64,000 nt of DNA, from assembly GCA_016845365.1 (NCBI GenBank), contig JAERST010000001.1, forward strand, positions 79,666 to 143,665, in the 5' to 3' direction. The translations under genes were made by a program, and so were the position numbers. The DNA comes from Methanobacteriota archaeon (GTDB lineage: Archaea > Thermoplasmatota > Poseidoniia > Poseidoniales > Thalassarchaeaceae). The notes beneath the pieces are model-generated. The model was given only the letters and a program-made list of their open reading frames with translations, did not search any database and had not been told where the DNA came from. Shown here in pieces: positions 5,291 to 36,260 of this stretch (position 1 is the first letter of the stretch; each line of letters starts with the position of its first letter).

Positions 5291-5926
5291 ATGTCTGAGC
5301 ATACTTTGCAACACAAGCTGATAGCCGAATTCATCGGGACCTTCTTTCTGGCGCTGACGATTTGTACCGCTGCCGTTCACGGTTCTGCGGGTGACTACGC
5401 TCCCTTCGCCATCGCCGCCACCCTCATGGTGATGATCTACGGACTTGGGCACGTCTCCGGGGCACACTTCAACCCAGCAGTTACTGTTGCAATTTGGTTG
5501 CGCGGCGCGTGTGAGAAGGATGAGGTCGCGCCGTACATCGCGGCACAGGTAATCGCTGGTGCTGCCGCGGCTCTGGTGTCTGCGAACGTTCTGTTCACAG
5601 AGGCTGATGTATCTGCTCTTGAGATGGAACTGGTTCCTGCAGTTGGGGCTGAATTCCTCTACACTTTCGCGCTCGTCTTCGTGATTCTGAATGTGGCGAC
5701 GAGCGAGGCGACCGCCGGCAATGGATACTACGGTGCGGCGATCGCTTTCGTGGTTCTTGCTGGTGCTCTGACCGTCGGTGGAATTTCTGGTGGTTCGTTC
5801 AACCCTGCTGTGACCGGTGCGCTGTTCACCAGCGGAGTCATCGAGGCTGCTGACCTGTGGATGCATCTAGTCCCACAATTCGTGGCTGGTGTCCTCGCTG
5901 TGTACGCCTTCCGTGCAACTCAGTGA
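5291..5926 (+). CDS. MIP-family channel (aquaporin/glycerol facilitator)
   Basis: Two NPA boxes (GAHFNPAVT and GGSFNPAVT) and six hydrophobic segments. Start placed at MSEHTLQHKLIAEFIGTFF. Confidence 0.85.
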   Translation: MSEHTLQHKLIAEFIGTFFLALTICTAAVHGSAGDYAPFAIAATLMVMIYGLGHVSGAHFNPAVTVAIWLRGACEKDEVAPYIAAQVIAGAAAALVSANVLFTEADVSALEMELVPAVGAEFLYTFALVFVILNVATSEATAGNGYYGAAIAFVVLAGALTVGGISGGSFNPAVTGALFTSGVIEAADLWMHLVPQFVAGVLAVYAFRATQ

Positions 5927-9900: not shown

Positions 9901-10284
9901 GATTCCATCGTCGCGTAACTTCTTGATTTCCCACGGCAGGATTGTCCCGCCACCGCCTCCGCAAAGGAATACGTGGTCGAATCCTGCCTCATCGAGGAGT
10001 TCCTTGGTGTGGGTGAACATCTCGACCGCGCCGCCTTGGTAGGATGTGATTGCAATCGCATGAGCATCCTCCTGAATCGCTGCCCGCGCCACCTCATCGG
10101 CGCCGCGGTCGTGGCCGAGGTGGATGACTTCGCAACCCATCGATTGGAAGATTCGCCGGAAGATTCCGATTGCAGCATCATGTCCGTCGAAGATCGCCGC
10201 TGCGGTCACAACCCGCAGCGGCGTGCTCGGCTCAGCCTCCGCCTTCTCTGAAGGCGAATCTGGGGCCTGAGCCTCGCTCACCAT
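6979..10284 (-). CDS. icmF: IcmF-type fused acyl-CoA mutase (B12-binding domain - MeaB-like GTPase - mutase TIM-barrel domain)
   Basis: 1101 aa. N-terminal B12 domain (AAIFDGHDAAIGIF...ITSYQGG), P-loop GLTGTGGAGKSSL plus NKFD of the MeaB/ArgK GTPase, and a C-terminal methylmalonyl-CoA-mutase-like catalytic domain. This domain order is diagnostic of IcmF rather than a split MCM. Confidence 0.8.
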   Translation of the reverse strand: MVSEAQAPDSPSEKAEAEPSTPLRVVTAAAIFDGHDAAIGIFRRIFQSMGCEVIHLGHDRGADEVARAAIQEDAHAIAITSYQGGAVEMFTHTKELLDEAGFDHVFLCGGGGGTILPWEIKKLRDDGIARIYSPDDGREMGLTGMVGDAIAEASGTDLLASARFNSLSGPVSADQHGAVAKLLTLAENADDEHFRTVLKRVRSVEQSKASPVVGLTGTGGAGKSSLTDELMLRIQRDNPGAKVALLATDPTRKRTGGALLGDRIRMNSLADDNLFMRSFASRASGREIADCIDRAIEACQAVGFDLILVETSGIGQGNDAITEVADLSMYVTTREYGAPSQLEKLAALDFADIVVLNKFDRPGAEDALTEIRKQFKRNREMWDAKNEDLPVIPTIASQFADAGVDQLWQKLATQLNEQHGQAFEAAEARLGPDGLPHRSAPIPPERQGYLAEVAASVRDYHARTQEASRNVRLVQQLEAAAQQMRKSNRLTSAADLTAEAEEVRKRVPASAWEMLKEFDERAAAYRSGQASYTVRGKDIPVETTTETLSGLDMPRVALPDTQDWGEKMAWIRAENVPGAFPFTAGVFPFKREDEIPIRMFAGEGSAERTNKRFHFLSEGQPFNRLSTAFDSPSLYGRDPQTRLDIFGKVCESGVSISTVDEMDLLFEGFDLCAPNTSTSKTINGNYWWHLAAFFNVAIRQQIRQFEQQNGRPPNDAEKAELKATALSTVRGTVQADQLKESMGQNTLVFNLDTALRMMGDVAEFYVQNNVRNHYFVSISGYHIAEAGANPITQAALTLSNGLTYVELFRARGLDPDKFLRNFSWFFSNGMDPEYAVIGRVARRIWAIAMRDIYGVGHRGQQLKYHIQSSGRSLHAQEFTFNDYRTTLQALYALADNANSLHTNSRDEAFGTPTEETVRDSMAIQMILSKEYGLLANENPMQGSHLSTWLTDQVEEEILRIFEEMHRRGGVLGSLEVNYQRNRIQDESMVYEHRKHSGELPIVGVNTFINPDAASLSADEADAFDVDVTRSDEAERMMVIERNEAFRAEHAAKAEEGLARLKQVARDGGNLFEVMMDIVEYCSVGQVTQALFETGGKFRRNM

Positions 10285-10328
10285 GCAACTGCGACCTCCA
10301 AATCACAAATGAATGAACCGACGAGGAT

Positions 10329-10961
10329 TCAATCGGTCCGTAGGACCGATTCCTCGTCGTATTTCTCGAGGAATGCGTCTGAAAGCAAATTTAGCCGATT
10401 CTCCAAAGCAGCATCTTTGTAACCCGATTCAGCCAACACATCCTCGGCATCCTTAATCTCTCGAAGATGATCCATTTGACTCCCCACTTTTTGGACGGTT
10501 TCAGACCAGCGGCCGTATAGTTCGGTATTCTCGTAGACCGTGGCGAAGAAAGCATCGAGAGTTTTTTTCTCTGCCAATTCAGAACTTGTTTTTACTTCAA
10601 AACAATTCAATTCTTCATTAATTCCGATATGAGAACCAAAAGTCCCAATCGCGTTCCGATCATTTAGCCGTTCCAAGGCTTGAGTCATCAATGGAGTATC
10701 CTCGTTCTCGATAGTCCACCGGGATCTCGAACTTACTAGAAAATCAGATTTATCATGAAATTTAACTTCCATTTCCCATTTTTCAAAATCATTTTCAAAG
10801 GGCGTAATAAACGCTTGATTTCTATTATCTACAAGAATATCCCAATTTCTTTTTCGTAATTGAGTAGCCAATGATTTGAACCCCCGAATCTCCCCAGATG
10901 CACCTGATTGAACCATTGTACCGCTAAGAAATTCAAACTCCTCTCTTTTGGGTCTTTCCAA
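10329..10961 (-). CDS. hypothetical protein (A+T-rich gene at the island edge)
   Basis: 210-aa ORF with no motif recognised. Composition clearly differs from the neighbouring icmF. Confidence 0.5.
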   Translation of the reverse strand: MERPKREEFEFLSGTMVQSGASGEIRGFKSLATQLRKRNWDILVDNRNQAFITPFENDFEKWEMEVKFHDKSDFLVSSRSRWTIENEDTPLMTQALERLNDRNAIGTFGSHIGINEELNCFEVKTSSELAEKKTLDAFFATVYENTELYGRWSETVQKVGSQMDHLREIKDAEDVLAESGYKDAALENRLNLLSDAFLEKYDEESVLRTD

Positions 10962-11200
10962 GACCCGTATCTCTTTTCACTTTCATTTTGAGTGGTTATA
11001 AAGACACAACAAGGGGGTTTCTGAGAGGGTCGAGAATTCGCAAATTCCTGTCACGACGGGCCGACGAGGGGCACAGACAGGGCGAAAACTCGTTCCTTCA
11101 TATACACTGGAAGTAGATGATAGGTTATGCTGCAGAGCACAGAGACGAAAACACACGCGTCGATTGGGATGCACGCATCGGTTGAAGACAAGGAGGTAGT

Positions 11201-11419
11201 TTGGTGAGCGAAGTCACAACAGACGTGATGATCGCCGACCGTACGGGCCATACCACCCTCCAACTCACCCAGCAGGAGACCCTTGACAGGGTCGCTGGGA
11301 TGGAGGGTGCCTGGGTCTTCGCAGGAGACAGGATGGTGCAGCCAGCTGAGCTGGCGAACACCGACTGGGGTACTGTGGGGACTGTCAGGGTGGTGCCTGG
11401 ACTAGTCGGTGGTAACTGA
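11201..11419 (+). CDS. ubiquitin-like / ThiS-MoaD-like beta-grasp protein ending ...VVPGLVGG-N
   Basis: 72 aa (TTG 11201 or GTG 11204 start). AGGAGG at 11191-11196. The C-terminal diglycine is followed by a single Asn and then the stop codon. An E1::JAB gene lies 110 nt downstream. Confidence 0.6.
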   Translation: MVSEVTTDVMIADRTGHTTLQLTQQETLDRVAGMEGAWVFAGDRMVQPAELANTDWGTVGTVRVVPGLVGGN

Positions 11420-11436
11420 CGGTCTTCAACCGATCC

Positions 11437-11499
11437 GGCGACTCTGTCGCCGCAGATCCACGTAAGGCGCCGCACAGTTGGAGCAATCCGACTGTGCGG
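11437..11499 (+). promoter_or_regulatory. two hairpins in the Ubl-E1 spacer
   Basis: ggcgac-tct-gtcgcc (11437-11451) and ccgcacag-N14-ctgtgcgg (11470-11499), followed by GGAGAGTGA and the ATG at 11530. Confidence 0.3.
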
Positions 11500-11529
11500 T
11501 TGCCGCGAAAACATAGGAGAGTGAATTGA

Positions 11530-12738
11530 ATGAGGTCATATGAACAGAATGCTTGGACAAAGGGTGAGATTGTAATTACGGTAATTGGAGCCGGTGGAAT
11601 TGGCTCAAATCTTGTGCCGCACCTCGCGCGCGCGTTGCGTTGTGGTGAGTTGATCGGCAAGGTCGGTCCGGTGAGATTGCGAGTTATCGATGGTGATTAT
11701 GTTGAGGAACGCAATCTTCAGCATCAGAATTTCACATCGGAAAATGTCGATTCTTACAAGACCGAATCAATCGTCAGACCTCTTTGGAATTGTCATCATA
11801 CCTTATTCACAATCGAATCGATTCCCGAAAATGTTCGAACTCCAACTTTCATCGCGACTTCTGACCTCGTCCTCGTCGCTGTAGATTCGATGGAAGTTCG
11901 TCGTCTGGTTCATCGGTACGCAGACACTTGGTTGGACTTGCGCTGCCAAGGCGATGGTTACATCGCTCTTGACCACAGAGTTGACCCTGTAATCGTCTCA
12001 AAGCTCACGCCGCTGAATGGGGAGTCGACCTCTTGCCAATTGCCAGGGGCTCTCAAGTCTGGCAACATTCAGTTCGGCCATCTTCTCGCGGGGGCTCATG
12101 GTGCGCAGTGGGTACTGCAGTATCTCCGCTACTTCGCTGGTGAGGTGAACGCTCAACCTCCTGCGCCGCAGACTGCGAACATTACCTTCGGAACGCTCGG
12201 TCGCTTCGAACTACACTCTCCAAACCTCGAACCTCGCACAGACGTTGAACCGCAGATTCACAGCGATGATTTGTTGGAGATATTTGTCGAATCGGAGGAG
12301 CATGATTCCGTACCGATTCGGGAGACTCTTACGGCTCACGCAGTGAGCCGCGATTACCAGAGTCTGTGGAACCTCGCGGACCGTCTGGGCCGCGAGGTCA
12401 GCATCCTCTTCGATGCTGACGACAAGGTGTGGGTTGATGTTGGTACAGCCGGACAAGTCCGGCTAGCTCCTCCAGAGGGTGCGCGGATTCCGTTCAAGTT
12501 GTGGATTCACACGCATCCGCGCGATGCATATTGGAGCGCCACAGACCAAGATTCATTGCTCAGATTCAGCGGAATCCTGCAAGAGGCTCTGGTCCTCGGC
12601 CATGACCATCTGAAGAGGGCGGTCCATCTTGCCGAGCCGACAGATGAGTGCATCGAGAAAGGCTCGGCACTCGAATTCTGGACTGACGAGGAAATCACAC
12701 TCTACAGTGAGATGGAGGTAGTCGCAGATGGATCCTGA
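11530..12738 (+). CDS. E1-like (ThiF/MoeB/UBA adenylation domain) fused to a C-terminal JAB/MPN+ (JAMM) metallopeptidase
   Basis: N-half has GAGGIGS (GxGxxG), IDGDYVEERNLQHQ (DxDxV...NLxxQ) and VAVDS. C-half has E289 (GREVSILF) and H327-T-H329-PRDAYW-S336-AT-D339 (nt 12508-12546). No CxxC zinc pairs of the MoeB/UbaA type. Confidence 0.75.
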   Translation: MRSYEQNAWTKGEIVITVIGAGGIGSNLVPHLARALRCGELIGKVGPVRLRVIDGDYVEERNLQHQNFTSENVDSYKTESIVRPLWNCHHTLFTIESIPENVRTPTFIATSDLVLVAVDSMEVRRLVHRYADTWLDLRCQGDGYIALDHRVDPVIVSKLTPLNGESTSCQLPGALKSGNIQFGHLLAGAHGAQWVLQYLRYFAGEVNAQPPAPQTANITFGTLGRFELHSPNLEPRTDVEPQIHSDDLLEIFVESEEHDSVPIRETLTAHAVSRDYQSLWNLADRLGREVSILFDADDKVWVDVGTAGQVRLAPPEGARIPFKLWIHTHPRDAYWSATDQDSLLRFSGILQEALVLGHDHLKRAVHLAEPTDECIEKGSALEFWTDEEITLYSEMEVVADGS

Positions 12739-12967
12739 GATCTCCGCAGCCATGCTCCGAGTCCAGCGAGCGCTGGACGCTCGAGAGCCGAATCAAGTCG
12801 GCTTGAAAATTCCAGCTTTGGTCAATGCGATCATCGATGAGGAAGCAGATGAGGAACTCATCGATCTTGTCCGGTCAGCCATGAGTTCAAAAGAGACGCC
12901 TGTCACTATGCCTGAGGTGATTGAAGGGGTCCTTGGTCTGGTCCGCTGGCGTCAGTCCGCGGCCTAA
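12728..12967 (+). CDS. small acidic helical protein, overlaps the E1::JAB stop by 11 nt
   Basis: 79 aa with no Cys. The overlap suggests translational coupling. A hairpin follows at 12985-13000. Confidence 0.45.
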   Translation: MDPEISAAMLRVQRALDAREPNQVGLKIPALVNAIIDEEADEELIDLVRSAMSSKETPVTMPEVIEGVLGLVRWRQSAA

Positions 12968-12984
12968 GGCCGCGACGCGTGAGA

Positions 12985-13000
12985 GGCCCGGAAACGGGCC
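12985..13000 (+). terminator. GC hairpin ggcccg-gaaa-cgggcc after the Ubl/E1 operon; T-rich run about 100 nt downstream
   Basis: Perfect 6-bp stem with a GAAA loop read directly. Located 18 nt after the stop at 12967. Confidence 0.35.
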
Positions 13001-13172
13001 GAAAACCACCTGATGTGATGGGCAATACTGCCTACCATTATAGGCTAGTAGGGGGCCGGTGATAATCCGGCTCGGGGCAGGAACCTCTCGGAGCAGTTAT
13101 TTTTACCCCAATAATAAGACAAATCCGATATTTCCTGCAATTAGCCAACAAAAGAAATTAGAGGTCATTTAC

Positions 13173-14153
13173 ATGCCAAATTGCTATATTTGTAACAGTA
13201 TTGAAGTAAGAATCGAGAATGATTTGTTCATTTGTTCAGCCTGTGGGTTTGAACAGAATTTGAACTCAACAGAATCTGACTGGGAAAGCGGTCAACGAAT
13301 ACCGAACATCAATCAGTTGACCGCGGTAAATCCCAATCAACTTGGGGGGGCGAGAATCGATGCCAACCACCCCGACGCTCGGCGTAATAGAGTTCTTCGC
13401 CGCCTAATCAGAGCAGAACGAATTGCAGGCGATGGTCAATCCAAACGATTCCTCTCCGAGATACTCGATGAGGTGACTAAACTCGACCTTTCAATCGAGA
13501 TTAAGCAGCGAATCGTCAGGATGTTGCACGAGATAATCAGGTTGCATGGGAAAGGTCTGGGTTGGATTCGTCACCGACCACAGGGAGTGATGACCAAGGA
13601 GGAGTACGAATTGATGACGCGACGTGCATTCATATTGATAGCAATGCAGAAGCTAAACGAAATCGAAGTACCAATAAACGTGCTTCAATACGAGCAAGAA
13701 TGGCAGGTCGAGCCAATCTTCTTCAATCGTGTGAAGAAGGTTCTGGATAAGGCATTGAAATTGGCCGGGAACGGTGGCGCGGCACCCGAAAAGTGTGGAA
13801 TTCGCGAAGCCAATGAGAGGCGACGTCAACAACTCTTGAATCATTTGAACTCCTTGAGAGACTTGGTAGCAAAGCATCTCGGCCATTCGACCGCCAGCAG
13901 GGTTTACACTCAGTCCATTTCCTTACTCAAACAACTCGGCGAACCGATGGATGGTTCTGATTTTGAGAACCTCGGCGAGACTTGCAATATGAAGCCGACC
14001 AAGCTTATTCCCCAAGTCATTGATGCAGCAATGTACATCCTCAACATTCCTTCCCATGACATTCGTCAGGTACGCCGCGAACTCAATCTCCCGAACCGTC
14101 GAGTTCCAGATGCGATGAAGTGGCTGACATCTGCCGATGTAGAAGAAGAGTGA
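13173..14153 (+). CDS. divergent TFB/TFIIB-like protein (N-terminal zinc ribbon plus helical, cyclin-like body)
   Basis: Start placed at MPNCYICNS...FICSACGF (CxxC-x13-CxxC ribbon). At 326 aa it matches TFB length. Helical repeats such as LDLSIEIKQRIVRMLHEIIRLHGKG...AFILIAMQKLNEIEVPINVL resemble TFB cyclin-fold segments. Confidence 0.45.
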   Translation: MPNCYICNSIEVRIENDLFICSACGFEQNLNSTESDWESGQRIPNINQLTAVNPNQLGGARIDANHPDARRNRVLRRLIRAERIAGDGQSKRFLSEILDEVTKLDLSIEIKQRIVRMLHEIIRLHGKGLGWIRHRPQGVMTKEEYELMTRRAFILIAMQKLNEIEVPINVLQYEQEWQVEPIFFNRVKKVLDKALKLAGNGGAAPEKCGIREANERRRQQLLNHLNSLRDLVAKHLGHSTASRVYTQSISLLKQLGEPMDGSDFENLGETCNMKPTKLIPQVIDAAMYILNIPSHDIRQVRRELNLPNRRVPDAMKWLTSADVEEE

Positions 14154-14217
14154 ACCTCCTCTTCACGCCCTCGCGTTCTCGTAGACTCGCCGACCGGCCA
14201 CTAGCCGCGTTCGTGGT

Positions 14218-16125
14218 TCATTCGTCTAGAGGCCGGTTTAGGATCTCACCCAATTGTCCAACTCCTGGGTCCATGCGCTCAAAGTTGGCCCAAGCAGGAC
14301 CGGGCATCAGGCGCATCCTCTGTCTGATGGTAATCAGCGGTTCGAGTAACTCGCCGAATTGATGTACAAATTCACCTAAATCTCTCTGCGGGAATCTAAC
14401 TCGAGTGAACATGTCTCTCCTAGGTCGGCGTACGCCGTGTTCATTGACGTCCTCCACTCTCTCCCAACCAGCTGCTCGAAGCATAGTTTCACTGAGTTCA
14501 TGCTCCAATACGTTTCTAATCCTCAAGGTTGTGTCACATTCGGCAAATTCGATTCGGTACATATCATCACCCCTGCCATCAGCGAAAGCTAGTCTTGAGT
14601 TGAGAGGAAGGCGCAGAAGAACACTCCAAAATCGTGGGAAAATCACTGTAGCTCGAACTGCCATTCGTTCTGCCTGATTACGAGCTCGTATCTCTTCATC
14701 CAGCTCTTGGTCGTCCACTCTCGCTCGGTCCCGGTCTCTCCTCGCTCTATTCTCCACACGTTGGAAATTTTCATTCATAATCTGTCGAAGAACAGGCTGC
14801 AGAGTATCGATGTGAGCAGCGGAGCCGATATCATCGAGAAGACTGAGGATGACCGTACCAATCGCATCACCGAGGACTAAGGCTCGTAATTCATCAGTCT
14901 CTACTACGCAGAGGTGTTCTCGTGGGTGACTCGTTCGAGCGGAATGGCCATTGATTTCCCGTGGGCGAACTCTGAACCTACTCCCATGCGGGCCAGGACC
15001 TGGTGTAACGCTCCAGAGAACACCGGAAATGCCGCGTACCATGAATTGATTATTCTCTGAGTCAATTCGTACTTTCTCATTGTCGGTAATCGCACGAAGG
15101 AATTCGACGCCTCTCCGGTTCTCCTCATCCAAATGTAAGTCTGGAGGCGTCAGGAGACCATACTGCAAACATCGTAGGAATTGATGTTCGGGATGTGCGA
15201 CCGGTGAGAGTGCCCAGTTTAGTATCCTGGCGATCAGAATTGGGTCTGCAGGAAGTCTGCGAGTCATCCATTTCATTCCATTGCGCATTTTCAGCAATAA
15301 GCGTCCCTTCTTGATTGAGAAGCTGAGGCAAACAAGAGGCCTCCTTTCACCATAATTAGCATGTGAAATTGTCCCATCCCATCGTTTGAACCACTCGAGA
15401 TTCTCAATAAGGGAGCGGGGAATGCCGATTTCCATTCCTCGATTCATGCGGTTTAGGTAGGCTCTGTTAGGTTCTGTTCCCTCATCGAAGCGTGAAGGTT
15501 TGAGATAGAAGGTAACCGGATGATAAGAAATCTCTCTACCGTATTCCCCCTGCCTTCCTCTGAATTGTCGCAAACGCATCTGATTCGGAGAAAAACGCGA
15601 GGAAGCCACATTCATTGATACTAACAACGCCTTCCAATTGATTTGGTCAGCATCGTGGCGCTCTAGCATTTTCTCAAGTGTTAGGTATGGGACTGAGAGT
15701 GGAACTCCATCGAGCCAAAATTGATCATCGGCCCAAGTCAAGTAACTTCCATCTGGAAGAATGCCGCCACGTTGTAATCTCCTTCGCGCCGAAAAATCAT
15801 CCGAGAATATCCGTCCGCGCTCGATTTCAGCCTTCATCTCATCATCGAGCGCCCAAGGTTGAGGTGGATCGATTATCCAATGAGAGTCAGCAAGCTTCTG
15901 CGGATTGAGAACCCACCAGATATCGGTGCCTTCAGAGGAGTCGAGGGCAGACCAGAATTCACCCCTGTGGCCGCGCTCAAGTCGGATGCTAGCCGCGGCC
16001 TCATCCATCGAATTTTCATCGGGCATCAATTCCATCGAGCGCCCATGAAGGGCGGGAATGAGGATATGGCAAATATCACAGAAGGTATCTCCCGAGTCTA
16101 CTCCACAGCCTTTACACGAACTCAT
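14218..16125 (-). CDS. large Zn-knuckle protein, paralog A (635 aa), with a UBC-like H-P...C segment
   Basis: N-terminal CKGC-x9-CDIC-H. Internal TSHPREHLCVVETDELRALVLGDAIGTVILSLLDD (Cys406 codon at 14908-14910). Start overlaps the stop of the upstream paralog (ATGA at 16122-16125). Confidence 0.65.
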   Translation of the reverse strand: MSSCKGCGVDSGDTFCDICHILIPALHGRSMELMPDENSMDEAAASIRLERGHRGEFWSALDSSEGTDIWWVLNPQKLADSHWIIDPPQPWALDDEMKAEIERGRIFSDDFSARRRLQRGGILPDGSYLTWADDQFWLDGVPLSVPYLTLEKMLERHDADQINWKALLVSMNVASSRFSPNQMRLRQFRGRQGEYGREISYHPVTFYLKPSRFDEGTEPNRAYLNRMNRGMEIGIPRSLIENLEWFKRWDGTISHANYGERRPLVCLSFSIKKGRLLLKMRNGMKWMTRRLPADPILIARILNWALSPVAHPEHQFLRCLQYGLLTPPDLHLDEENRRGVEFLRAITDNEKVRIDSENNQFMVRGISGVLWSVTPGPGPHGSRFRVRPREINGHSARTSHPREHLCVVETDELRALVLGDAIGTVILSLLDDIGSAAHIDTLQPVLRQIMNENFQRVENRARRDRDRARVDDQELDEEIRARNQAERMAVRATVIFPRFWSVLLRLPLNSRLAFADGRGDDMYRIEFAECDTTLRIRNVLEHELSETMLRAAGWERVEDVNEHGVRRPRRDMFTRVRFPQRDLGEFVHQFGELLEPLITIRQRMRLMPGPAWANFERMDPGVGQLGEILNRPLDE

Positions 16126-17849
16126 CTTGCTTCCTCCAAGGCTTGGAGGTCGCCTCCGAATCTCTCGAATAATCGCTCGATTGCCTGCCGGAGATGTTCT
16201 TCGCTTTCATCCAATTCGCGTAGGTTTTCTTCCAACACATTTCGAGTAATTTCACGATTGTGTTCAACCACCTCTTCTCTCTCAAAATCGATATTATCCC
16301 AATCATAATCTTCCTCGTAATACTCATCTTCTTCGATCTCATCTTCATCCATCAAGAGCTCTTCATCGTCGGGGACTCCGTGGACATAATCGTCGACCAA
16401 ATGGTCCCACCAACACGGCGCTTCGACCCTCCTCTTCTGCCACCCCTTGTGCTTGCTCAGCAAATCCAGGAGGTGATGGAGAGTGATGATTCCCGTCTGA
16501 CTCTCGAGGTCGTTATGCAATGCCAAGAGATAGCTGGCGGCGACATCGCCGGTGGGGATGTCGTGTCCCGCTTGACTATCGATACAGATTTGCACGCCAC
16601 GTTCTATAGCATCTTCAAACATCGATTCGTGGGGAATCGCGTTGACGAGGAATTTCTTCGGGTCTGCTGTGGCAAGCAGAACATAGTGCAGACCGCTAGC
16701 CCCTTTGACTCGCAATCCGAGTTTGGTAGAGTCGACGCGCACTGGTTCCATCGAAGAGTGTTCACCGAGAGTCTCAACCGTCTTCTTGAGGAAGAGAACG
16801 GAATTCCGCTGACTCGAGGTTGGGACCCAGAATTCATCTTCTGAGTTCCAGCACCAAAACAAGTCATTCAACTTCTCAGAATGTTCTGTTCCTGGGGGCT
16901 CGAAGGTCCAAGCCATCAGCAAGCGCCAAACTCGAGGTTCGACCATCACAGGAATCGGGGTAGGCTTACCATCGACGAGCGCAAGTAGGCAAAAGCGCTC
17001 GTTGACAACGACGAGTTTGGGAGTGATGAAATGCCCAAGCAGGGTCACGATGGCGGCTTGACGGTCTTCTAGAATCTCCAGCCATGTTTCAGCAGCTCTG
17101 CCGCCTTGTTCCTCGATCAATTCGATATTTCCGTCAATCAATTCTCTGAGTGGTGCATCCCCACCGAGTTTATCTCTCTCGAGCAAGGTCAAAAATCGTA
17201 GGAATGGATGCATCAAATGTCTGACAGAGAAGTTGTCAGAGATTCCCATCATATGAGGCTCGACACCATGCCATGCATTGTGTCGGTACCACTCAGCCCA
17301 ATTGTCGATTGTCTCTGGATGGCAATCACGTAGGCAGCAAGACATCGCGAAGAGGAAATGTTTCCAATTTACAACCGACCCAACCCGAGCGGGATTTGAC
17401 ATCCATAGAGCGATGTCTCGCATCGGTAGTGGGCCCGGGAGTGTGATATCGTCAATCGAGATTTTGGAGTCGGCGCCAACTTTGAGAATGCTTCCTCCCG
17501 GCAGCGGCAGTCCGCCGTTACTGGTAATTCCGTGAAGGTTGAGAATCCGTCCGTACTGCCGCCACTGCTCAGCCGCTGCCTCGCTGAAATAAGGCGGTTG
17601 ACCACGCCGAGAGCGGAGAGCGCGAGGTAATTCGGAATCGATGGTCTCCGCCTCGGCGAGCATCATCAATCTCTGTTCATGAGTCAGCCCGCGGCCGGGT
17701 CTGAGAATCGCTTTCATTTCGGCTAAGTCGCCGGTCTGAGGGATATTTTGTTGGGACAATCCAGTGATTCCACGGGCAGTTAGGGAGCAGACCGCGCAGT
17801 CGTGAATGAAGTTAGAAGTAGCATGTCCACACCAGCAGAGATTAGGCAT
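16122..17849 (-). CDS. large Zn-knuckle protein, paralog B (575 aa), with a UBC-like segment and a hyper-acidic C-terminal region
   Basis: N-terminal CWC-x10-CAVC. Internal FLVNAIPHESMFEDAIERGVQICIDSQ...VAASYLLALHNDL (Cys422 codon at 16584-16586). Acidic DDEELLMDEDEIEEDEYYEEDYDWDNIDFEREE. Collinear similarity to the 635-aa protein. Confidence 0.65.
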   Translation of the reverse strand: MPNLCWCGHATSNFIHDCAVCSLTARGITGLSQQNIPQTGDLAEMKAILRPGRGLTHEQRLMMLAEAETIDSELPRALRSRRGQPPYFSEAAAEQWRQYGRILNLHGITSNGGLPLPGGSILKVGADSKISIDDITLPGPLPMRDIALWMSNPARVGSVVNWKHFLFAMSCCLRDCHPETIDNWAEWYRHNAWHGVEPHMMGISDNFSVRHLMHPFLRFLTLLERDKLGGDAPLRELIDGNIELIEEQGGRAAETWLEILEDRQAAIVTLLGHFITPKLVVVNERFCLLALVDGKPTPIPVMVEPRVWRLLMAWTFEPPGTEHSEKLNDLFWCWNSEDEFWVPTSSQRNSVLFLKKTVETLGEHSSMEPVRVDSTKLGLRVKGASGLHYVLLATADPKKFLVNAIPHESMFEDAIERGVQICIDSQAGHDIPTGDVAASYLLALHNDLESQTGIITLHHLLDLLSKHKGWQKRRVEAPCWWDHLVDDYVHGVPDDEELLMDEDEIEEDEYYEEDYDWDNIDFEREEVVEHNREITRNVLEENLRELDESEEHLRQAIERLFERFGGDLQALEEAR

Positions 17850-17975
17850 AATCAGATATCAACGTCGAGAGTATTTGAACTCGGAATTGGCGAACCCCTT
17901 TCCACACCTCGCACAGCGGGAATTCTCCACCCGCGCCGGGTGAGTATTGAAGGTAGGAGGCACATTCGATAGTCG

Positions 17976-18440
17976 ATGGCCGATCCGACTGAGGCACACA
18001 TCTGCCCGCGCGATGGCTCCCCCCTCGTGCCTCCAGCAGAGTCGGATCGCTCGGCTTACATCCGCCACGGAATCCACCACTGCGACACGTGCGCGGGCAT
18101 GCTTCTCAATGCCGAGGCCGCCGAGGACGCCATCTGTGCAACCAAGCTCGAAGAGATGCACGAAGGCTTCACTGAAGAGGGAACGCCAGTCGACATCGAT
18201 TGCCCATTCTGCGATGCGCAGATGCGAGTCCGCAATTTTGCTTTCCAGCGCATCGATGGCAGCCTCACCGAGCCGATTGAAATCGACGGCTGCCCAAATT
18301 GCACATCGTTTTGGTTAGACGCGGGCGAACTCCACAGATTGTCACCGCCCGCGAACGGCGATCGCACAGCTCGCGTCGAGGCCAACGCGCTCGCCGTCGT
18401 CCTCGAAATTCTCTTCCAATTGCCAATCGTCCTACTCTGA
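17976..18440 (+). CDS. double zinc-ribbon protein (zf-TFIIB / PF13453-like)
   Basis: CPRDGSPL...HHCDTCAGMLL and CPFCDAQM...CPNCTSFWLDAGELHRL; the C..C-WLD-GEL pattern is typical of this family. Divergent from the giant-paralog operon. Confidence 0.6.
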   Translation: MADPTEAHICPRDGSPLVPPAESDRSAYIRHGIHHCDTCAGMLLNAEAAEDAICATKLEEMHEGFTEEGTPVDIDCPFCDAQMRVRNFAFQRIDGSLTEPIEIDGCPNCTSFWLDAGELHRLSPPANGDRTARVEANALAVVLEILFQLPIVLL

Positions 18441-36111: not shown

Positions 36112-36260
36112 GCCGGGGTGGCGTAGTTGGTAGCGCGTCGGACTCATAGGGTACAGTTGACGGGATTTTTCCTGTCGACGCGATCGATGAGCGCACAAGC
36201 CTAGCCGAGAATGTCTGAGACATCCGAAGGTCGCGGGTTCGAGTCCCGCTCCCGGCACCA
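36112..36260 (+). tRNA. tRNA with CAT anticodon (elongator Met or Ile2) carrying a 73-nt intron at 37/38; CCA encoded
   Basis: Manual fold: acceptor GCCGGGG/TCCCGGC, D-arm GCGT-AGTTGGTA-GCGC, anticodon stem TCGGA/TCCGA, loop CTCATA|intron 36149-36221|A, T-arm GCGGG-TTCGAGT-CCCGC, then ACCA. G1:C72 and a non-GGG anticodon stem argue against an initiator. Confidence 0.85.

What the first reader, a model, noticed from the sequence alone, without database searches (positions are those of the whole stretch)
10329..18440. Candidate self-contained ubiquitin-like conjugation island (Ubl - E1::JAB - small ORF - TFB-like - two giant Zn-knuckle/UBC-like paralogs - double Zn-ribbon)
Seen: eight ORFs with no housekeeping assignment lie between icmF (ends at 10284) and lysE (18530), in DNA that is visibly more A+T-rich than the flanks. 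They are: (i) a 72-aa ORF with an AGGAGG box ending ...VVPGLVGGN; (ii) a 402-aa ORF with ThiF/E1 adenylation motifs (GAGGIGS, IDGDYVEERNLQHQ, VAVDS) fused to a JAMM motif (E289...HTHPRDAYWSATD); (iii) a 79-aa ORF overlapping (ii) by 11 nt; (iv) a 326-aa TFIIB/TFB-like protein; (v, vi) two paralogous proteins of 635 and 575 aa joined by an ATGA overlap, each with an N-terminal Cys4 knuckle and an internal H-P...(L/I)C(V/I) segment resembling the UBC active-site region; (vii) a divergently transcribed double zf-TFIIB-type protein; (viii) a 210-aa unknown. Established: Ubl + E1 + JAB (+/- E2) are the defining parts of ubiquitin-type conjugation. Examples are archaeal SAMP/UbaA/JAMM1, the Caldiarchaeum Ub-E1-E2-RING-Rpn11 operon, and the bacterial Bil/Bub and CBASS Cap2/Cap3 antiviral modules. 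Inference: this is a compact Ubl system in which the deconjugating/processing peptidase is fused to the E1, and the E2-like activity, if real, is embedded in two giant Zn-finger proteins. I do not recognise that arrangement from any described system. An island location without mobility genes fits an accessory (defence or regulatory) role. Alternative: a sulfur-carrier pathway of the CysO/Mec+ or QbsE/QbsD/QbsC type, which also uses a JAB to trim a GG-extended carrier. No biosynthetic or rhodanese partner lies inside the island.
Basis: partly seen in the sequence, partly recalled or inferred. Interest (0 to 1): 0.9.

Follow-up and report, generated by a model that had tools for sequence, protein, structure and literature searches.

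The report
Ubiquitin-like tagging module of marine archaea
A conserved gene cluster of the abundant, uncultured ocean archaea Poseidoniales (Marine Group II) encodes a ubiquitin-like protein, an activating enzyme fused to a trimming or removing peptidase, and a previously undescribed family of cysteine proteins that may act as the carrier, and viruses of these archaea carry their own copies of three of these parts.

Summary
Six genes (11204-17849) form a real module.

- **Ubl:** about 71 aa, family ending in GG plus 0-2 variable residues. Its weak profile matches are to ubiquitin itself.
- **E1::JAB:** 402 aa. The ThiF domain passes Pfam's threshold. The JAMM residues E289/H327/H329/S336/D339 are invariant, and every PDB profile hit is a JAMM deubiquitinase.
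- **Small helical protein:** 79 aa.
- **TFIIB-type zinc-ribbon protein:** 326 aa. Only the ribbon is TFB-like.
- **Two paralogs:** 635 and 575 aa, sharing a core with one invariant Cys and two invariant Asp.

It is not an island. The module sits in the same icmF-lysE position in relatives with only 47% E1 identity, and it occurs across both Poseidoniales families. The 210-aa and 154-aa flanking ORFs are only neighbours.

E1-JAB fusions are already known in bacteria (Iyer 2006 operon types 6a-6e; Bub type I). The E2 claim is unproven: there is no Pfam or PDB sequence match, and fold searches rank UBC-fold proteins first only at E about 1.

New here: magrovirus-like contigs encode the Ubl, the E1 and the Cys-family protein, with no JAB found within 10 kb. 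The best reading is a thioester-based Ubl conjugation system, possibly tied to virus-host conflict.

The parts
11191..11196 (+). AGGAGG ribosome-binding box of the Ubl gene
   Evidence: Read directly. It lies 7 nt upstream of GTG 11204.
11204..11419 (+). Ubiquitin-like protein precursor, 71 aa (72 aa from TTG 11201), ending ...VVPGLVGG-N
   Evidence: Across 13 family members (A4) the C-terminus is [IV]xPGL[VT]GG plus 0-2 variable residues. A profile search of the PDB returns mostly ubiquitin, in register up to the GG; single ubiquitins score E about 0.05-1. hhalign against ubiquitin gives P 0.0035. The gene lies next to the E1 in host, mobile-element and viral versions.
11417..11529 (+). Highly structured Ubl-E1 spacer with two hairpins
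   Evidence: RNA fold -53.6 kcal/mol, z -5.7, 0 of 200 shuffles as stable. Relatives have a hairpin at the same place with unrelated sequence. A role as attenuator or 3' stabiliser is inferred.
11530..12219 (+). E1-like adenylation domain of the 402-aa protein (about residues 1-230); candidate catalytic Cys169 is codon 12034-12036
   Evidence: Pfam ThiF 5.6e-14, 52.3 bits against a cut-off of 28.1. A PDB profile search hits MccB, ThiF-type proteins and UBA6 at 2e-7 to 1e-5. GAGGIG, D54, D56, N62, Q66, K77, D119, R124, W134-D136-L137-R138 and S168-C169-Q170 are invariant across host and viral E1s.
12262..12738 (+). JAMM/MPN+ (JAB) metallopeptidase domain fused to the E1 (about residues 245-402); E289, H327, H329, S336, D339
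   Evidence: These residues are invariant in 15 diverse domain sequences and in 15 full-length proteins. All 17 PDB hits of the domain profile are JAMM deubiquitinases (AMSH-LP at 0.0036, Sst2, Rpn11-like, BilC), with HxH..S..D aligned. No Pfam JAB hit. In many relatives this domain is a separate, overlapping gene.
12728..12967 (+). 79-aa acidic helical protein, translationally coupled to the E1::JAB gene (11-nt overlap)
   Evidence: It follows the JAB-encoding sequence in both Poseidoniales families and in most layouts. It has no family match and no invariant residue apart from the start Met. Function unknown.
13173..14153 (+). 326-aa protein: TFIIB-type zinc ribbon (C4, C7, C21, C24) plus about 290 aa of unknown fold
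   Evidence: The four Cys are invariant. The PDB profile hits Brf2 residues 4-79 (3e-4) and the P. furiosus TFIIB ribbon (5e-4), and nothing beyond the ribbon. A relative hits Pfam 'TFIIB zinc-binding' at 1e-4, below threshold. It co-occurs with the module in three layouts.
14218..16125 (-). F: 635-aa Zn-knuckle protein of the new Cys-domain family; core about 14716-15117; Cys406 is codon 14908-14910
   Evidence: It is a paralog of G and the family HMMs align it end to end. It keeps the invariant Cys/Asp/Asp set. No Pfam, PADLOC or NCBIfam match.
16122..17849 (-). G: 575-aa Zn-knuckle protein of the same family; core domain residues 335-492 = 16374-16847; Cys422 is codon 16584-16586; Asp435, Asp447
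   Evidence: C422, D435 and D447 are invariant in 19, 48 and 24 divergent members. The AF2 core model has pLDDT 84 and pTM 0.79, with helix, beta-meander, Cys and helices in order. Foldseek against the PDB ranks FANCL and Ubc9 first at E 0.8-1.2, which is not significant. The family has only 148 clusters among 1.84 billion proteins.
10329..10961 (-). 210-aa unknown ORF: a neighbour, probably not part of the module
   Evidence: Homologs occur only in the icmF context and are absent from L030, L026-29, L039 and the viral versions. GC 0.414, the lowest gene in the region.
17976..18440 (+). 154-aa double zinc-ribbon protein with a hydrophobic C-terminus: a neighbour, probably not part of the module
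   Evidence: Pfam Zn_ribbon_TFIIB 4e-10, two stretches. It stays next to lysE in L024/L025, where E, F and G are missing, and it is absent where the module lies elsewhere. It is 59-62% identical between genera, like the housekeeping flanks.

Best explanation
Genes 11204-17849 encode a ubiquitin-like protein-conjugation system specific to Poseidoniales (Marine Group II archaea).

**Proposed cycle**
1. The roughly 71-aa Ubl is made with one extra residue after its Gly-Gly.
2. The JAMM domain fused to the E1 removes that tail, and can later remove the Ubl from targets.
3. The E1 domain adenylates the exposed glycine and takes the Ubl onto its invariant Cys169.
4. The Ubl passes to the invariant Cys (C422 in G, C406 in F) of the two translationally coupled Zn-knuckle paralogs.
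5. These act as E2-like carrier/ligases, and their large, fast-evolving remainder selects targets.

The 79-aa helical protein and the TFIIB-ribbon protein are accessory parts (adaptor, regulator or substrate).

**Shown here**
- The domain identities of the E1 and JAB.
- The GG-plus-tail C-terminus of the Ubl family.
- The invariant Cys in the E1 and in F/G.
- Co-inheritance of the genes.

**Inferred**
- Every chemical step.
- The E2-like role of F/G.
- The biological role. I lean towards virus-host conflict, because the module proteins diverge much faster than their neighbours and viruses of the same hosts carry their own Ubl, E1 and F/G-type genes.
For: **E1.** Pfam ThiF is above threshold and the PDB profile hits E1 enzymes. 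The nucleotide and Mg motifs and S168-C169-Q170 are invariant in host and viral versions.

**JAB.** E, HxH, S and D are invariant in 15 diverse domains. All 17 PDB hits are JAMM deubiquitinases.

**Ubl.** The family ends in GG plus 0-2 variable residues, the signature of a trimmed precursor. Its weak profile matches are to ubiquitin itself, in register to the GG.

**F/G.**
- One Cys and two Asp are the only invariant residues over 48 divergent members.
- F/G-type genes accompany the E1 in five of the eight layouts, and the Ubl as well in four of these. This includes a minimal four-gene cluster (Zn-knuckle F/G, Ubl, E1, JAB; L039/41/42) and the viral trio.
- The secondary-structure order of the confident core model (helix, beta-meander, variable loop, Cys, three or four helices) is that of a UBC fold.
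- UBC-fold proteins are the top PDB fold hits, though not significantly.

**Precedent.** A JAB-E1 fusion that trims and then adenylates its Ubl has been shown experimentally for BubCD (PMC11601596).

**Inheritance.** The synteny is kept at 47% E1 identity. There are 69 loci among species-representative genomes, nearly all Poseidoniales and from both families.

**Conflict signature.** Between the window and L003:
- Flanks: icmF 78%, AMP-ligase 63%, LysE 60%.
- Module: Ubl 50%, E1::JAB 47%, F and G 30%, the 79-aa protein 29%, the ribbon protein 24%.

Magrovirus-like contigs carry a Ubl ending GG-QN or GG-CY, an F/G homolog and an E1.
Against: - No experiment exists, and the organisms are uncultured.
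The sequence evidence for it is weak: single-ubiquitin E 0.05-1, and hhalign probability 9%.
- No Pfam JAB model matches any of 15 family members.
- The F/G core shows no detectable relationship to E2s. More than 60 members have no relevant Pfam match, PDB profile searches were empty, and hhalign against four E2s gave probability 0.3%. Foldseek gave E 0.8-4 and TM 0.27-0.30.
- The HPN motif is absent.
- Archaeal SAMP conjugation is reported to need no E2, so F/G need not be carriers.
- In Poseidoniaceae no Ubl gene was found next to the E1-JAB-D-F/G cluster.
- Some lineages keep only E1::JAB plus the small protein (L024/L025).
- Nothing ties the chromosomal module directly to defence, and PADLOC gives only weak E1 matches.
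Confidence: 0.6

Rival explanations
1. It is a Ubl conjugation system that needs no E2, as in haloarchaeal SAMP/UbaA. The E1::JAB alone activates and attaches the Ubl. The F/G proteins are substrates, scaffolds or target-recognition adaptors, and their invariant Cys has another role, for example metal binding, redox sensing or being the modified site.
For: No test links the F/G core to E2s. Several layouts lack F/G altogether: L051/54/55 have E1, JAB, D, the ribbon protein and the Ubl, and L024/25 have only E1::JAB and D. From general knowledge of the SAMP system, sampylation is reported to require only the E1 UbaA.
Against: F/G-type genes follow the Ubl-E1 pair into viruses and into a minimal four-gene cluster. 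The only invariant residues over 48 divergent members are one Cys and two Asp in a compact domain, which points to catalysis rather than scaffolding. The secondary-structure order and the top-ranked fold hits point to UBC-like folds.
Confidence: 0.2
2. It is a sulfur-carrier pathway of the CysO/Mec+ or QbsE/QbsD/QbsC type. The JAB trims the GG-extended carrier, the E1 adenylates it, and the carrier becomes a thiocarboxylate that donates sulfur to a metabolite or tRNA.
For: Trimming of a GG-plus-tail carrier by a JAB also occurs in those pathways. ThiF and MoeB models are among the sub-threshold NCBIfam hits of the E1.
Against: The E1 has no rhodanese domain. No cysteine synthase, ThiG/ThiH, MoaE or siderophore enzyme was seen in the neighbourhoods examined across the eight layouts. 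Iyer et al. note that E1s of the E1-JAB-E2 operon class never carry rhodanese, unlike the sulfur class. The Ubl profile hits ubiquitin and no ThiS or MoaD chain. Carriage by viruses and the fast divergence are not what a cofactor pathway would show.
Confidence: 0.07
3. It is an MccB/PaaA-like peptide-maturation system. The E1-like enzyme activates the C-terminus of a small precursor for chemical modification into a secreted compound, and the other genes serve processing or immunity.
For: The best PDB sequence match of the E1 profile is MccB (2.3e-7), and PaaA also appears.
Against: That match covers only the generic nucleotide-binding half (residues 8-119). The small protein is a conserved domain of about 70 aa with ubiquitin-like sequence, not a short peptide. 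No exporter or immunity gene was noticed in the neighbourhoods examined, though this was not screened for specifically. A JAMM domain and a conserved-Cys partner are features of conjugation systems.
Confidence: 0.04

Closest known systems
Bacterial E1-JAB(-E2) operons of Iyer, Burroughs and Aravind 2006 (types 6a-6e), including the 6A-MBL system with an E2-E1-JAB triple-module protein
   Same: The E1-like domain lacks rhodanese and is fused to, or adjacent to, a JAB peptidase. It is linked to a small Ubl with a C-terminal Gly and to a conserved-Cys protein. Zn-finger proteins occur in the neighbourhood. As in type 6a, the JAB lies C-terminal to the E1. NCBIfam gives a weak hit to the 6A-MBL cap2_3 model (1.6e-4).
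   Different: All matches are far below the family thresholds. There is no E2 domain on the E1 and no metallo-beta-lactamase gene. The host is an archaeal order, and the module is inherited vertically at a fixed chromosomal site rather than scattered on mobile elements. The Cys partner matches none of the Pfam Prok-E2 families.
Type I Bub (6E.1) pathway: BubCD, a JAB-E1 fusion, with BubAB and BubE (Ye et al. 2024 preprint, PMC11601596)
   Same: One polypeptide combines the peptidase that exposes the Ubl's C-terminal Gly with the minimal homodimer-type E1 that adenylates it. This is the mechanism proposed here.
   Different: The domain order is reversed: JAB is N-terminal in BubCD. BubCD and BubB lack catalytic Cys and work through oxyesters, whereas here both the E1 (C169) and F/G (C422) have an invariant Cys. 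The Ubl is not fused to the E2, and no DUF6527/BubE protein is present.
Bil (BilABCD) and CBASS Cap2/Cap3 antiphage conjugation modules
   Same: They have the same set of parts: Ubl or target, E1, E2 and a JAMM peptidase. There is no E3, and the E2 is proposed to choose targets. BilC appears among the JAB profile's PDB hits. PADLOC Cap2-type 'E1-E2' models give the only defence-library hits (about 2e-5).
   Different: The PADLOC hits cover only the generic E1 fold. BilD has tandem adenylation domains plus a Cys domain, and no such architecture was detected here (402 aa with a single ThiF match; not specifically tested). No cyclase or effector genes are present. The module is a fixed lineage trait, not a sporadic defence island.
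Archaeal SAMP/UbaA/HvJAMM1 and the Caldiarchaeum Ub-E1-E2-RING-Rpn11 operon
   Same: These are archaeal Ubl conjugation systems with an E1 and a JAMM protease. The Caldiarchaeum Rpn11-like protein is among the JAB profile's hits. The Ubl's C-terminal half resembles ubiquitin.
   Different: The UbaA model scores 23 bits against a cut-off of 450. No canonical E2 or RING is present. The E1 is fused to JAB. The partner family is new and restricted to Poseidoniales and their viruses.

Membership tests
E1-like / ThiF superfamily (PF00899) | Rossmann-type nucleotide-binding domain that matches the family model above its curated threshold | tested here: met
   Pfam ThiF 5.6e-14, 52.3 bits against a cut-off of 28.1. 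All 15 family members match.
E1-like / ThiF superfamily (PF00899) | Conserved GxGxxG, Mg/ATP-binding Asp and Arg/Lys residues | tested here: met
   GAGGIG, D54, D56, N62, Q66, K77, D119 and R124 are invariant across host and viral proteins.
E1-like / ThiF superfamily (PF00899) | Catalytic Cys in the crossover loop, required for E1s that form a thioester | tested here: inconclusive
   S168-C169-Q170 is invariant, 50 residues after D119. Its position in a crossover loop was not verified on a structure.
JAMM/MPN+ (JAB) metallopeptidases | E...HxH...S..D zinc-binding and catalytic motif | tested here: met
   E289, H327, H329, S336 and D339 are invariant. The spacing after HxH is 6-7 residues. The motif aligns to the AMSH-LP catalytic motif.
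JAMM/MPN+ (JAB) metallopeptidases | Match to a curated family model (Pfam JAB or Prok-JAB) | tested here: not met
   No JAB-family hit at E up to 1 in the window protein or in 15 relatives. The only support is the PDB profile search, best E 0.0036, in which all 17 hits are JAMM enzymes.
Ubiquitin-like beta-grasp modifiers | C-terminal Gly-Gly, exposed or followed by a removable tail | tested here: met
   11 of 13 family members end in GG plus 0-2 variable residues. The other two end in -YG and in AG plus two residues. The viral versions end GG-QN or GG-CY.
Ubiquitin-like beta-grasp modifiers | Beta-grasp fold | tested here: inconclusive
The profile against the PDB gives mostly ubiquitin hits, but weak ones per domain (single ubiquitin E 0.05-1.3). 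hhalign against ubiquitin gives P 0.0035 and probability 9%. No Pfam hit.
UBC/E2 superfamily (UQ_con and Prok-E2 families) | Sequence match to an E2 family model or to solved E2s | tested here: not met
   No E2-related Pfam match in F, G or the other family members scanned, more than 60 in all. No PDB sequence hit with the full or core profiles.
UBC/E2 superfamily (UQ_con and Prok-E2 families) | UBC fold: N-terminal helix, four-strand meander, active-site loop, then helices | tested here: inconclusive
   The core model (pLDDT 84) has this order of elements. Foldseek ranks FANCL, Ubc9 and Ube2d2 in the top 10, but at E 0.8-3 and TM 0.27-0.30. CDC34 and FANCL are in the top 10 for the full-length model at E about 4.
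UBC/E2 superfamily (UQ_con and Prok-E2 families) | Invariant catalytic Cys after the meander | tested here: met
   C422 is invariant in 19, 48 and 24 divergent members.
UBC/E2 superfamily (UQ_con and Prok-E2 families) | HPN motif upstream of the Cys (canonical E2s) | tested here: not met
   The segment before the Cys varies in length and sequence. HP occurs in F635 but is not conserved.
TFIIB/TFB | N-terminal Cys4 zinc ribbon of TFIIB type | tested here: met
   Four invariant Cys. The PDB profile hits Brf2 (3e-4) and the P. furiosus TFIIB ribbon (5e-4). A relative hits Pfam 'TFIIB zinc-binding' at 1e-4, below the gathering score.
TFIIB/TFB | Two cyclin-like core repeats (PF00382) | tested here: not met
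   No Pfam TFIIB hit. No PDB hit beyond the ribbon, although many TFIIB/TFB chains are in the PDB. The fold was not modelled.
PRTRC system | PRTRC ThiF protein above the NCBIfam cut-off, with PRTRC A-F and ParB partners | tested here: not met
   TIGR03736 scores 52.9 bits against a cut-off of 144.75. No other PRTRC model hits any ORF.
SAMP/UbaA | UbaA-type E1 above the NCBIfam cut-off | tested here: not met
   NF047750 scores 23.2 bits against a cut-off of 450.
Type I Bub (6E.1) | N-terminal JAB fused to the E1; Ubl-E2 fusion; DUF6527 protease; no catalytic Cys | tested here: not met
   Here the order is E1 then JAB, the Ubl is a separate gene, there is no DUF6527 hit, and Cys is invariant in both the E1 and F/G. 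The Bub features are taken from PMC11601596.
Sulfur-carrier pathways (CysO/Mec+, QbsCDE, ThiS/MoaD) | Rhodanese on or near the E1, or a sulfur-insertion enzyme in the neighbourhood | tested here: not met
   None was found in the window or in the neighbourhoods examined across the eight layouts.

The most novel reading that the evidence does not exclude
Poseidoniales have a ubiquitination-like system whose Ubl carrier/ligase is a new class of cysteine enzyme. This enzyme is either unrelated to UBC E2s or diverged beyond sequence and fold-search recognition. The system is one side of an arms race with magroviruses, which encode their own Ubl, E1 and carrier but apparently no deconjugating JAB. 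That would be the first virus-encoded Ubl activation and transfer set reported for archaeal viruses, and a new enzymatic solution for Ubl transfer.
Probability: 0.3. Interest if true: 0.85.

Novelty: new variant of a known kind. Interest (0 to 1): 0.72.

Why it matters
- **The module.** It is lineage-wide, has a sequence-level ubiquitin-like modifier and a thioester-capable E1 fused to its own peptidase, and includes a partner family restricted to these archaea and their viruses. That adds a distinct branch to the prokaryotic relatives of ubiquitination.
- **The partner family.** If the invariant-Cys proteins carry the Ubl, they are either the most divergent E2s known or a new kind of carrier. 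Either answer bears on how E2 function arose.
- **The viral copies.** They give a concrete, testable hypothesis of Ubl-based virus-host conflict in archaea, parallel to the bacterial Bil, CBASS and Bub systems.
- **Testability.** All parts are small and soluble-looking, so they can be tested in vitro without culturing the host.

Tried and rejected
- **Family libraries on all eight ORFs** (Pfam, NCBIfam, PHROGs, PADLOC). The significant matches were ThiF on the 402-aa ORF and Zn_ribbon_TFIIB on the 154-aa ORF. PADLOC, NCBIfam and PHROGs added only sub-threshold E1-type hits to the 402-aa ORF.
- **Third homolog search.** I used a 19-member F/G alignment to gather diverse sequences for structure prediction. 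The candidate cap returned almost the same 25 close orthologs, so the MSAs stayed shallow at 21 sequences.
- **Full-length G575 model** (pLDDT 71). The Foldseek search of the PDB gave nothing significant. I re-modelled the core alone (pLDDT 84), and that search was also non-significant. In the BFVD viral library the top two hits (probability 0.96 and 0.85, TM 0.46-0.48) are unnamed viral proteins of 416-441 aa. These are probably the viral homologs and add nothing on function.
The probability was 0.3%, although the Cys residues aligned. I do not count this as support.
- **F/G profile searches against PDB sequences** (whole protein and core). No hits.
- **Fusions of F/G family members to the Ubl, E1 or JAB.** None among 150 representatives. 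One member has a SAP domain.
- **Viral searches.** Scans of IMG/VR with the F/G alignment and with the host E1 alignment failed. A tblastn search of GenBank phages with the viral F/G protein found nothing. The same protein used as a single query in IMG/VR worked.
- **'Recent horizontally acquired island'.** Rejected on synteny at 47% identity. The GC dip is 3-4 points here and 1-2 points in relatives.
- **Bacterial occurrence.** Rejected. The contigs labelled as bacterial MAGs are short and carry the Poseidoniales gene order, or are the same sequence as IMG/VR viral contigs.
- **The 16-nt inverted repeat bracketing the Ubl ORF.** It is not conserved in relatives.
- **Literature.** Searches for Poseidoniales or Marine Group II with ubiquitin, and for magrovirus with ThiF or ubiquitin, found no description of this module.

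Full report
**1. The observation**

All eight ORFs exist at the stated coordinates, with the stated lengths, overlaps and motifs.
- The 79-aa ORF overlaps the 402-aa ORF by 11 nt.
- The 575-aa and 635-aa ORFs share an ATGA junction.
- AGGAGG lies at 11191-11196, 7 nt before GTG 11204. The small protein is therefore more likely 71 aa than 72, which is also the public gene call.
- The region is the lowest-GC 8.1-kb stretch of the window (0.512 against 0.550). The dip is small, and only 1-2 points in relatives.
- A 146-nt Rfam tRNA match that ARAGORN did not report, which suggests a tRNA with an intron, points to an archaeon. So do Nop56 and fibrillarin genes in syntenic loci.

**2. Whose genome, and is it an island?**

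The 402-aa protein has 216 relatives in 5.8 billion proteins. Most of those listed are about 400 aa long and come from marine metagenomes.

A scan of one genome per prokaryotic species returned 69 loci.
- Nearly all are labelled Poseidoniales: Thalassarchaeaceae, Poseidoniaceae (including the original MG-II chromosome CM001443), or 'Euryarchaeota/Methanobacteriota archaeon'.
- The closest named relative, at 65% identity, is a Thalassarchaeaceae MAG.

The module is not an island. In genomes whose E1 is only 44-50% identical, the order is kept: icmF, 181-aa ORF, Ubl, E1::JAB, about 77-aa ORF, ribbon protein, the two large paralogs, double-ribbon ORF, LysE, AMP-ligase. This is an old, vertically inherited locus.

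The module proteins diverge much faster than their neighbours. Against L003 the identities are as follows.

| Gene | Identity |
|---|---|
| icmF | 78% |
| AMP-ligase | 63% |
| LysE | 60% |
| 154-aa ORF | 59% |
| Ubl | 50% |
| E1::JAB | 47% |
| F and G | 30% |
| 79-aa ORF | 29% |
| ribbon protein | 24% |
| 210-aa ORF | 23% |

**3. Which genes belong together?**

Iterated HMM searches over the fetched loci show eight layouts.

| Layout | Loci | Gene content |
|---|---|---|
| i | the window type | Ubl, E1::JAB, D, E, F, G |
| ii | L030 | the same six functions with E1 and JAB as separate overlapping genes, in another chromosomal context next to Dus |
| iii | L026-29, L032 | Ubl, a short (175-280 aa) F/G-type protein, E1, JAB, D, E, F; next to a T7-like single-subunit RNA polymerase, with an integrase in L032 |
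| iv | L039/41/42/50 | minimal cluster: Zn-knuckle F/G-type (about 350-390 aa), Ubl, E1, JAB |
| v | Poseidoniaceae | E1, JAB, D, F/G-type (about 340-370 aa); no Ubl found nearby |
| vi | L051, L054, L055 (L056/57 carry at least the JAB) | E1, JAB, D, a CYTH-like gene, the ribbon protein, and a Ubl ending AG plus two residues |
| vii | L024/25 | only E1::JAB and D |
| viii | viral contigs | Ubl, F/G-type, E1 |

The 210-aa and 154-aa ORFs occur only in the icmF-LysE setting. The 154-aa gene remains where E, F and G are absent. I therefore treat both as neighbours, and take the module to be 11204-17849.

**4. The parts**

*E1.* The domain passes Pfam's ThiF threshold. Its PDB profile hits are MccB, ThiF-type proteins, UBA6, UBA7 and NAE1. 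No specific NCBIfam family is reached: PRTRC_ThiF scores 52.9 bits against a cut-off of 144.75, and UbaA 23 against 450. Across host and viral versions the nucleotide and Mg residues and S168-C169-Q170 are invariant, while C139 is not. C169 lies 50 residues after the AVDS aspartate and is my candidate thioester Cys. This is an inference, because its position was not checked on a structure.

*JAB.* No Pfam JAB model matches any of 15 family members. However, E289, H327, H329, S336 and D339 are invariant in diverse full-length and stand-alone versions. All 17 PDB sequences reached by the domain profile are JAMM deubiquitinases (AMSH-LP at E 0.0036, AMSH, Sst2, the Caldiarchaeum Rpn11-like protein, BilC), with the motif aligned. 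I accept the assignment.

*Ubl.* The family ends [IV]xPGL[VT]GG followed by nothing or by 1-2 variable residues: N, Q, F, L, I, E, Y or LC. This is what a precursor trimmed to an exposed Gly-Gly would look like. Its profile hits ubiquitin itself, in register to the terminal GG (WVFAGDRMV... against LIFAGKQLE...). The hits are weak: single-domain E 0.05-1.3, and hhalign P 0.0035 with probability 9%.

*Ribbon protein.* Four invariant Cys form a TFIIB/Brf-type ribbon. The remaining 290 aa or so match nothing.

*The 79-aa protein.* It appears helical and acidic and has no invariant residue beyond the start Met.

**5. The two large paralogs**

F and G share an N-terminal Cys4 knuckle, which is present in 50 of 82 long family members. 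They also share a core of about 130 aa.

An exhaustive HMMER search of 1.84 billion representatives found only 148 clusters. Across 48 divergent members the only invariant residues are one Cys and two Asp: C422, D435 and D447 of G. No member has a Pfam domain relevant to function.

The core model is confident (pLDDT 84, pTM 0.79). Its elements run in this order: helix, beta-meander, a segment that varies in length across the family, a short strand ending in the Cys, then three or four helices carrying the two Asp and a conserved T-L. That order is the order of a UBC fold. My recollection of UbcH5 spacing also fits, but that is memory, not a test.

The tests themselves are inconclusive or negative.
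- Foldseek against the PDB ranks FANCL first, Ubc9 second and Ube2d2 tenth, at E 0.8-3 and TM 0.27-0.30.
- The full-length model gives FANCL and CDC34 in the top 10 at E about 4.
- Profile searches of PDB sequences find nothing.
- hhalign against four E2s gives probability 0.3%.

So F/G is not a demonstrable member of the E2 superfamily. The genomic logic (section 3) and the invariant Cys still make it the best candidate for the Ubl acceptor.

**6. Viruses**

Two 'bacterial' MAG contigs (L068, L071) and three IMG/VR viral genomes of 37-88 kb (L076-78; L068 matches L076 at 100% over the F/G-type protein) carry three of the parts.
- A 68-70-aa Ubl of this family, ending ...AIVGG-QN or -CY.
- A 429-477-aa F/G-type protein.
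- A 183-185-aa E1 with the SCQ motif.

No JAB was found within 10 kb. The same stretch holds a class II ribonucleotide reductase, a Cpn60-type chaperonin and an RFC-like clamp loader. This is the gene content described for group B magroviruses of Marine Group II (PMC5434244). Three magrovirus papers do not mention ThiF or ubiquitin.

**7. Mechanism**

Shown here:
- the domain identities;
- the conserved residues;
- the co-inheritance of the genes.

Established elsewhere:
- a JAB-E1 fusion that first trims its Ubl and then adenylates it (BubCD);
- E1-JAB fusions linked to E2-like proteins and Ubls in bacteria (Iyer et al. 2006, types 6a-6e).

Inferred here:
- JAB trims the Asn;
- the E1 adenylates the Ubl and forms Ubl~C169;
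- the Ubl transfers to C422/C406 of a probable F-G pair (translational coupling);
- the Ubl is conjugated to targets chosen by the large, variable parts of F/G;
- JAB reverses the modification.

Unlike Bub, which uses oxyesters and lacks catalytic Cys, this system keeps a Cys at both steps.

The fast divergence and the viral copies suggest a role in virus-host conflict. A regulatory role, for instance on transcription factors given the TFIIB-type ribbon protein, is not excluded.

I put 0.6 on the model as a whole and about 0.8 on 'protein-conjugation system'.

Rivals:
- E2-independent conjugation with F/G as adaptors or substrates (0.2);
- a sulfur carrier (0.07), since no rhodanese or sulfur enzyme was seen in the neighbourhoods examined and the Ubl resembles ubiquitin rather than ThiS or MoaD;
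- MccB-like peptide maturation (0.04).

**8. Novelty**

The kind of system (Ubl, E1, JAB and a Cys partner) is known, and so is E1-JAB fusion. Four things appear to be new:
- the lineage, a whole order of abundant marine archaea;
- the fixed chromosomal inheritance;
- the partner family, which no library covers;
- the viral trio.

I found no paper describing any of this. I file it as a new variant of a known kind, with interest 0.72.

Noticed in passing
L068, L071, L076-L078 (e.g. L076: Ubl 5549-5755, F/G-type 10001-11365, E1 11927-12478): Magrovirus-like viral contigs of 37-88 kb (IMG/VR), with a class II RNR, a Cpn60 chaperonin and an RFC-like gene, encode a Ubl ending GG-QN or GG-CY, an F/G-family protein and a 183-aa E1. 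No JAB lies within 10 kb. Magrovirus papers do not mention this.
   Followed up: partly
L032 8-289 and 1836-5459; L026-L029 upstream of the module: A variant of the module with an extra short F/G-type gene sits next to a T7-like single-subunit RNA polymerase (PF00940, 3e-53). L032 also has a phage-type integrase, and the loci share small genes. This suggests a mobile element or provirus.
   Followed up: partly
window 11417-11529: The Ubl-E1 spacer folds into two strong hairpins (-53.6 kcal/mol, z -5.7). Relatives have a hairpin at the same place with unrelated sequences. It may be an attenuator or 3' stabiliser that sets the Ubl:E1 ratio.
   Followed up: partly
window 11174-11189 and 11422-11437: A 16-nt inverted repeat (15 of 16 complementary) brackets the Ubl ORF exactly. 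By my rough estimate about 0.03 such pairs within 300 nt would be expected in this region. It is not conserved in relatives.
   Followed up: partly
window 36112-36257: Rfam finds a 146-nt tRNA match (56.9 bits) that ARAGORN does not report. It is probably a tRNA with an intron, consistent with an archaeon.
   Followed up: no
L015, L026, L028, L032, L064, L068, L071; protein P0058: Contigs carrying this archaeal or viral module are filed in public MAGs named Verrucomicrobia, Acidiferrobacter, Acidimicrobiaceae, Gammaproteobacteria, Salinimicrobium, Altibacter, Maricaulis and Longimicrobiales. This is most likely binning error.
   Followed up: partly
L009 7-222 and 335-550: Two tandem copies of the Ubl gene lie upstream of the E1::JAB gene in one genome.
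   Followed up: no
L024 600-2014; L025 807-2215: Two lineages (UBA40, UBA181) keep only E1::JAB and the small helical protein between the flanking genes. The ribbon gene and the F/G genes are absent, and no Ubl gene was detected.
   Followed up: no
L051, L054, L055 (e.g. L055 9902-13860): Another layout: E1, JAB, the small protein, a CYTH-like gene (Pfam 1e-4, just below threshold), the ribbon protein, and a Ubl ending ...IVAG-RV or -RA instead of GG.
   Followed up: partly
alignment A7 (one of 48 F/G-family representatives): One divergent family member carries a SAP domain (1.1e-10), a nucleic-acid-binding module.
   Followed up: no
window 10329-10961: The 210-aa neighbour has GC 0.414, far below every other gene here. 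It is only 23-25% identical to its positional counterparts and matches nothing.
   Followed up: no
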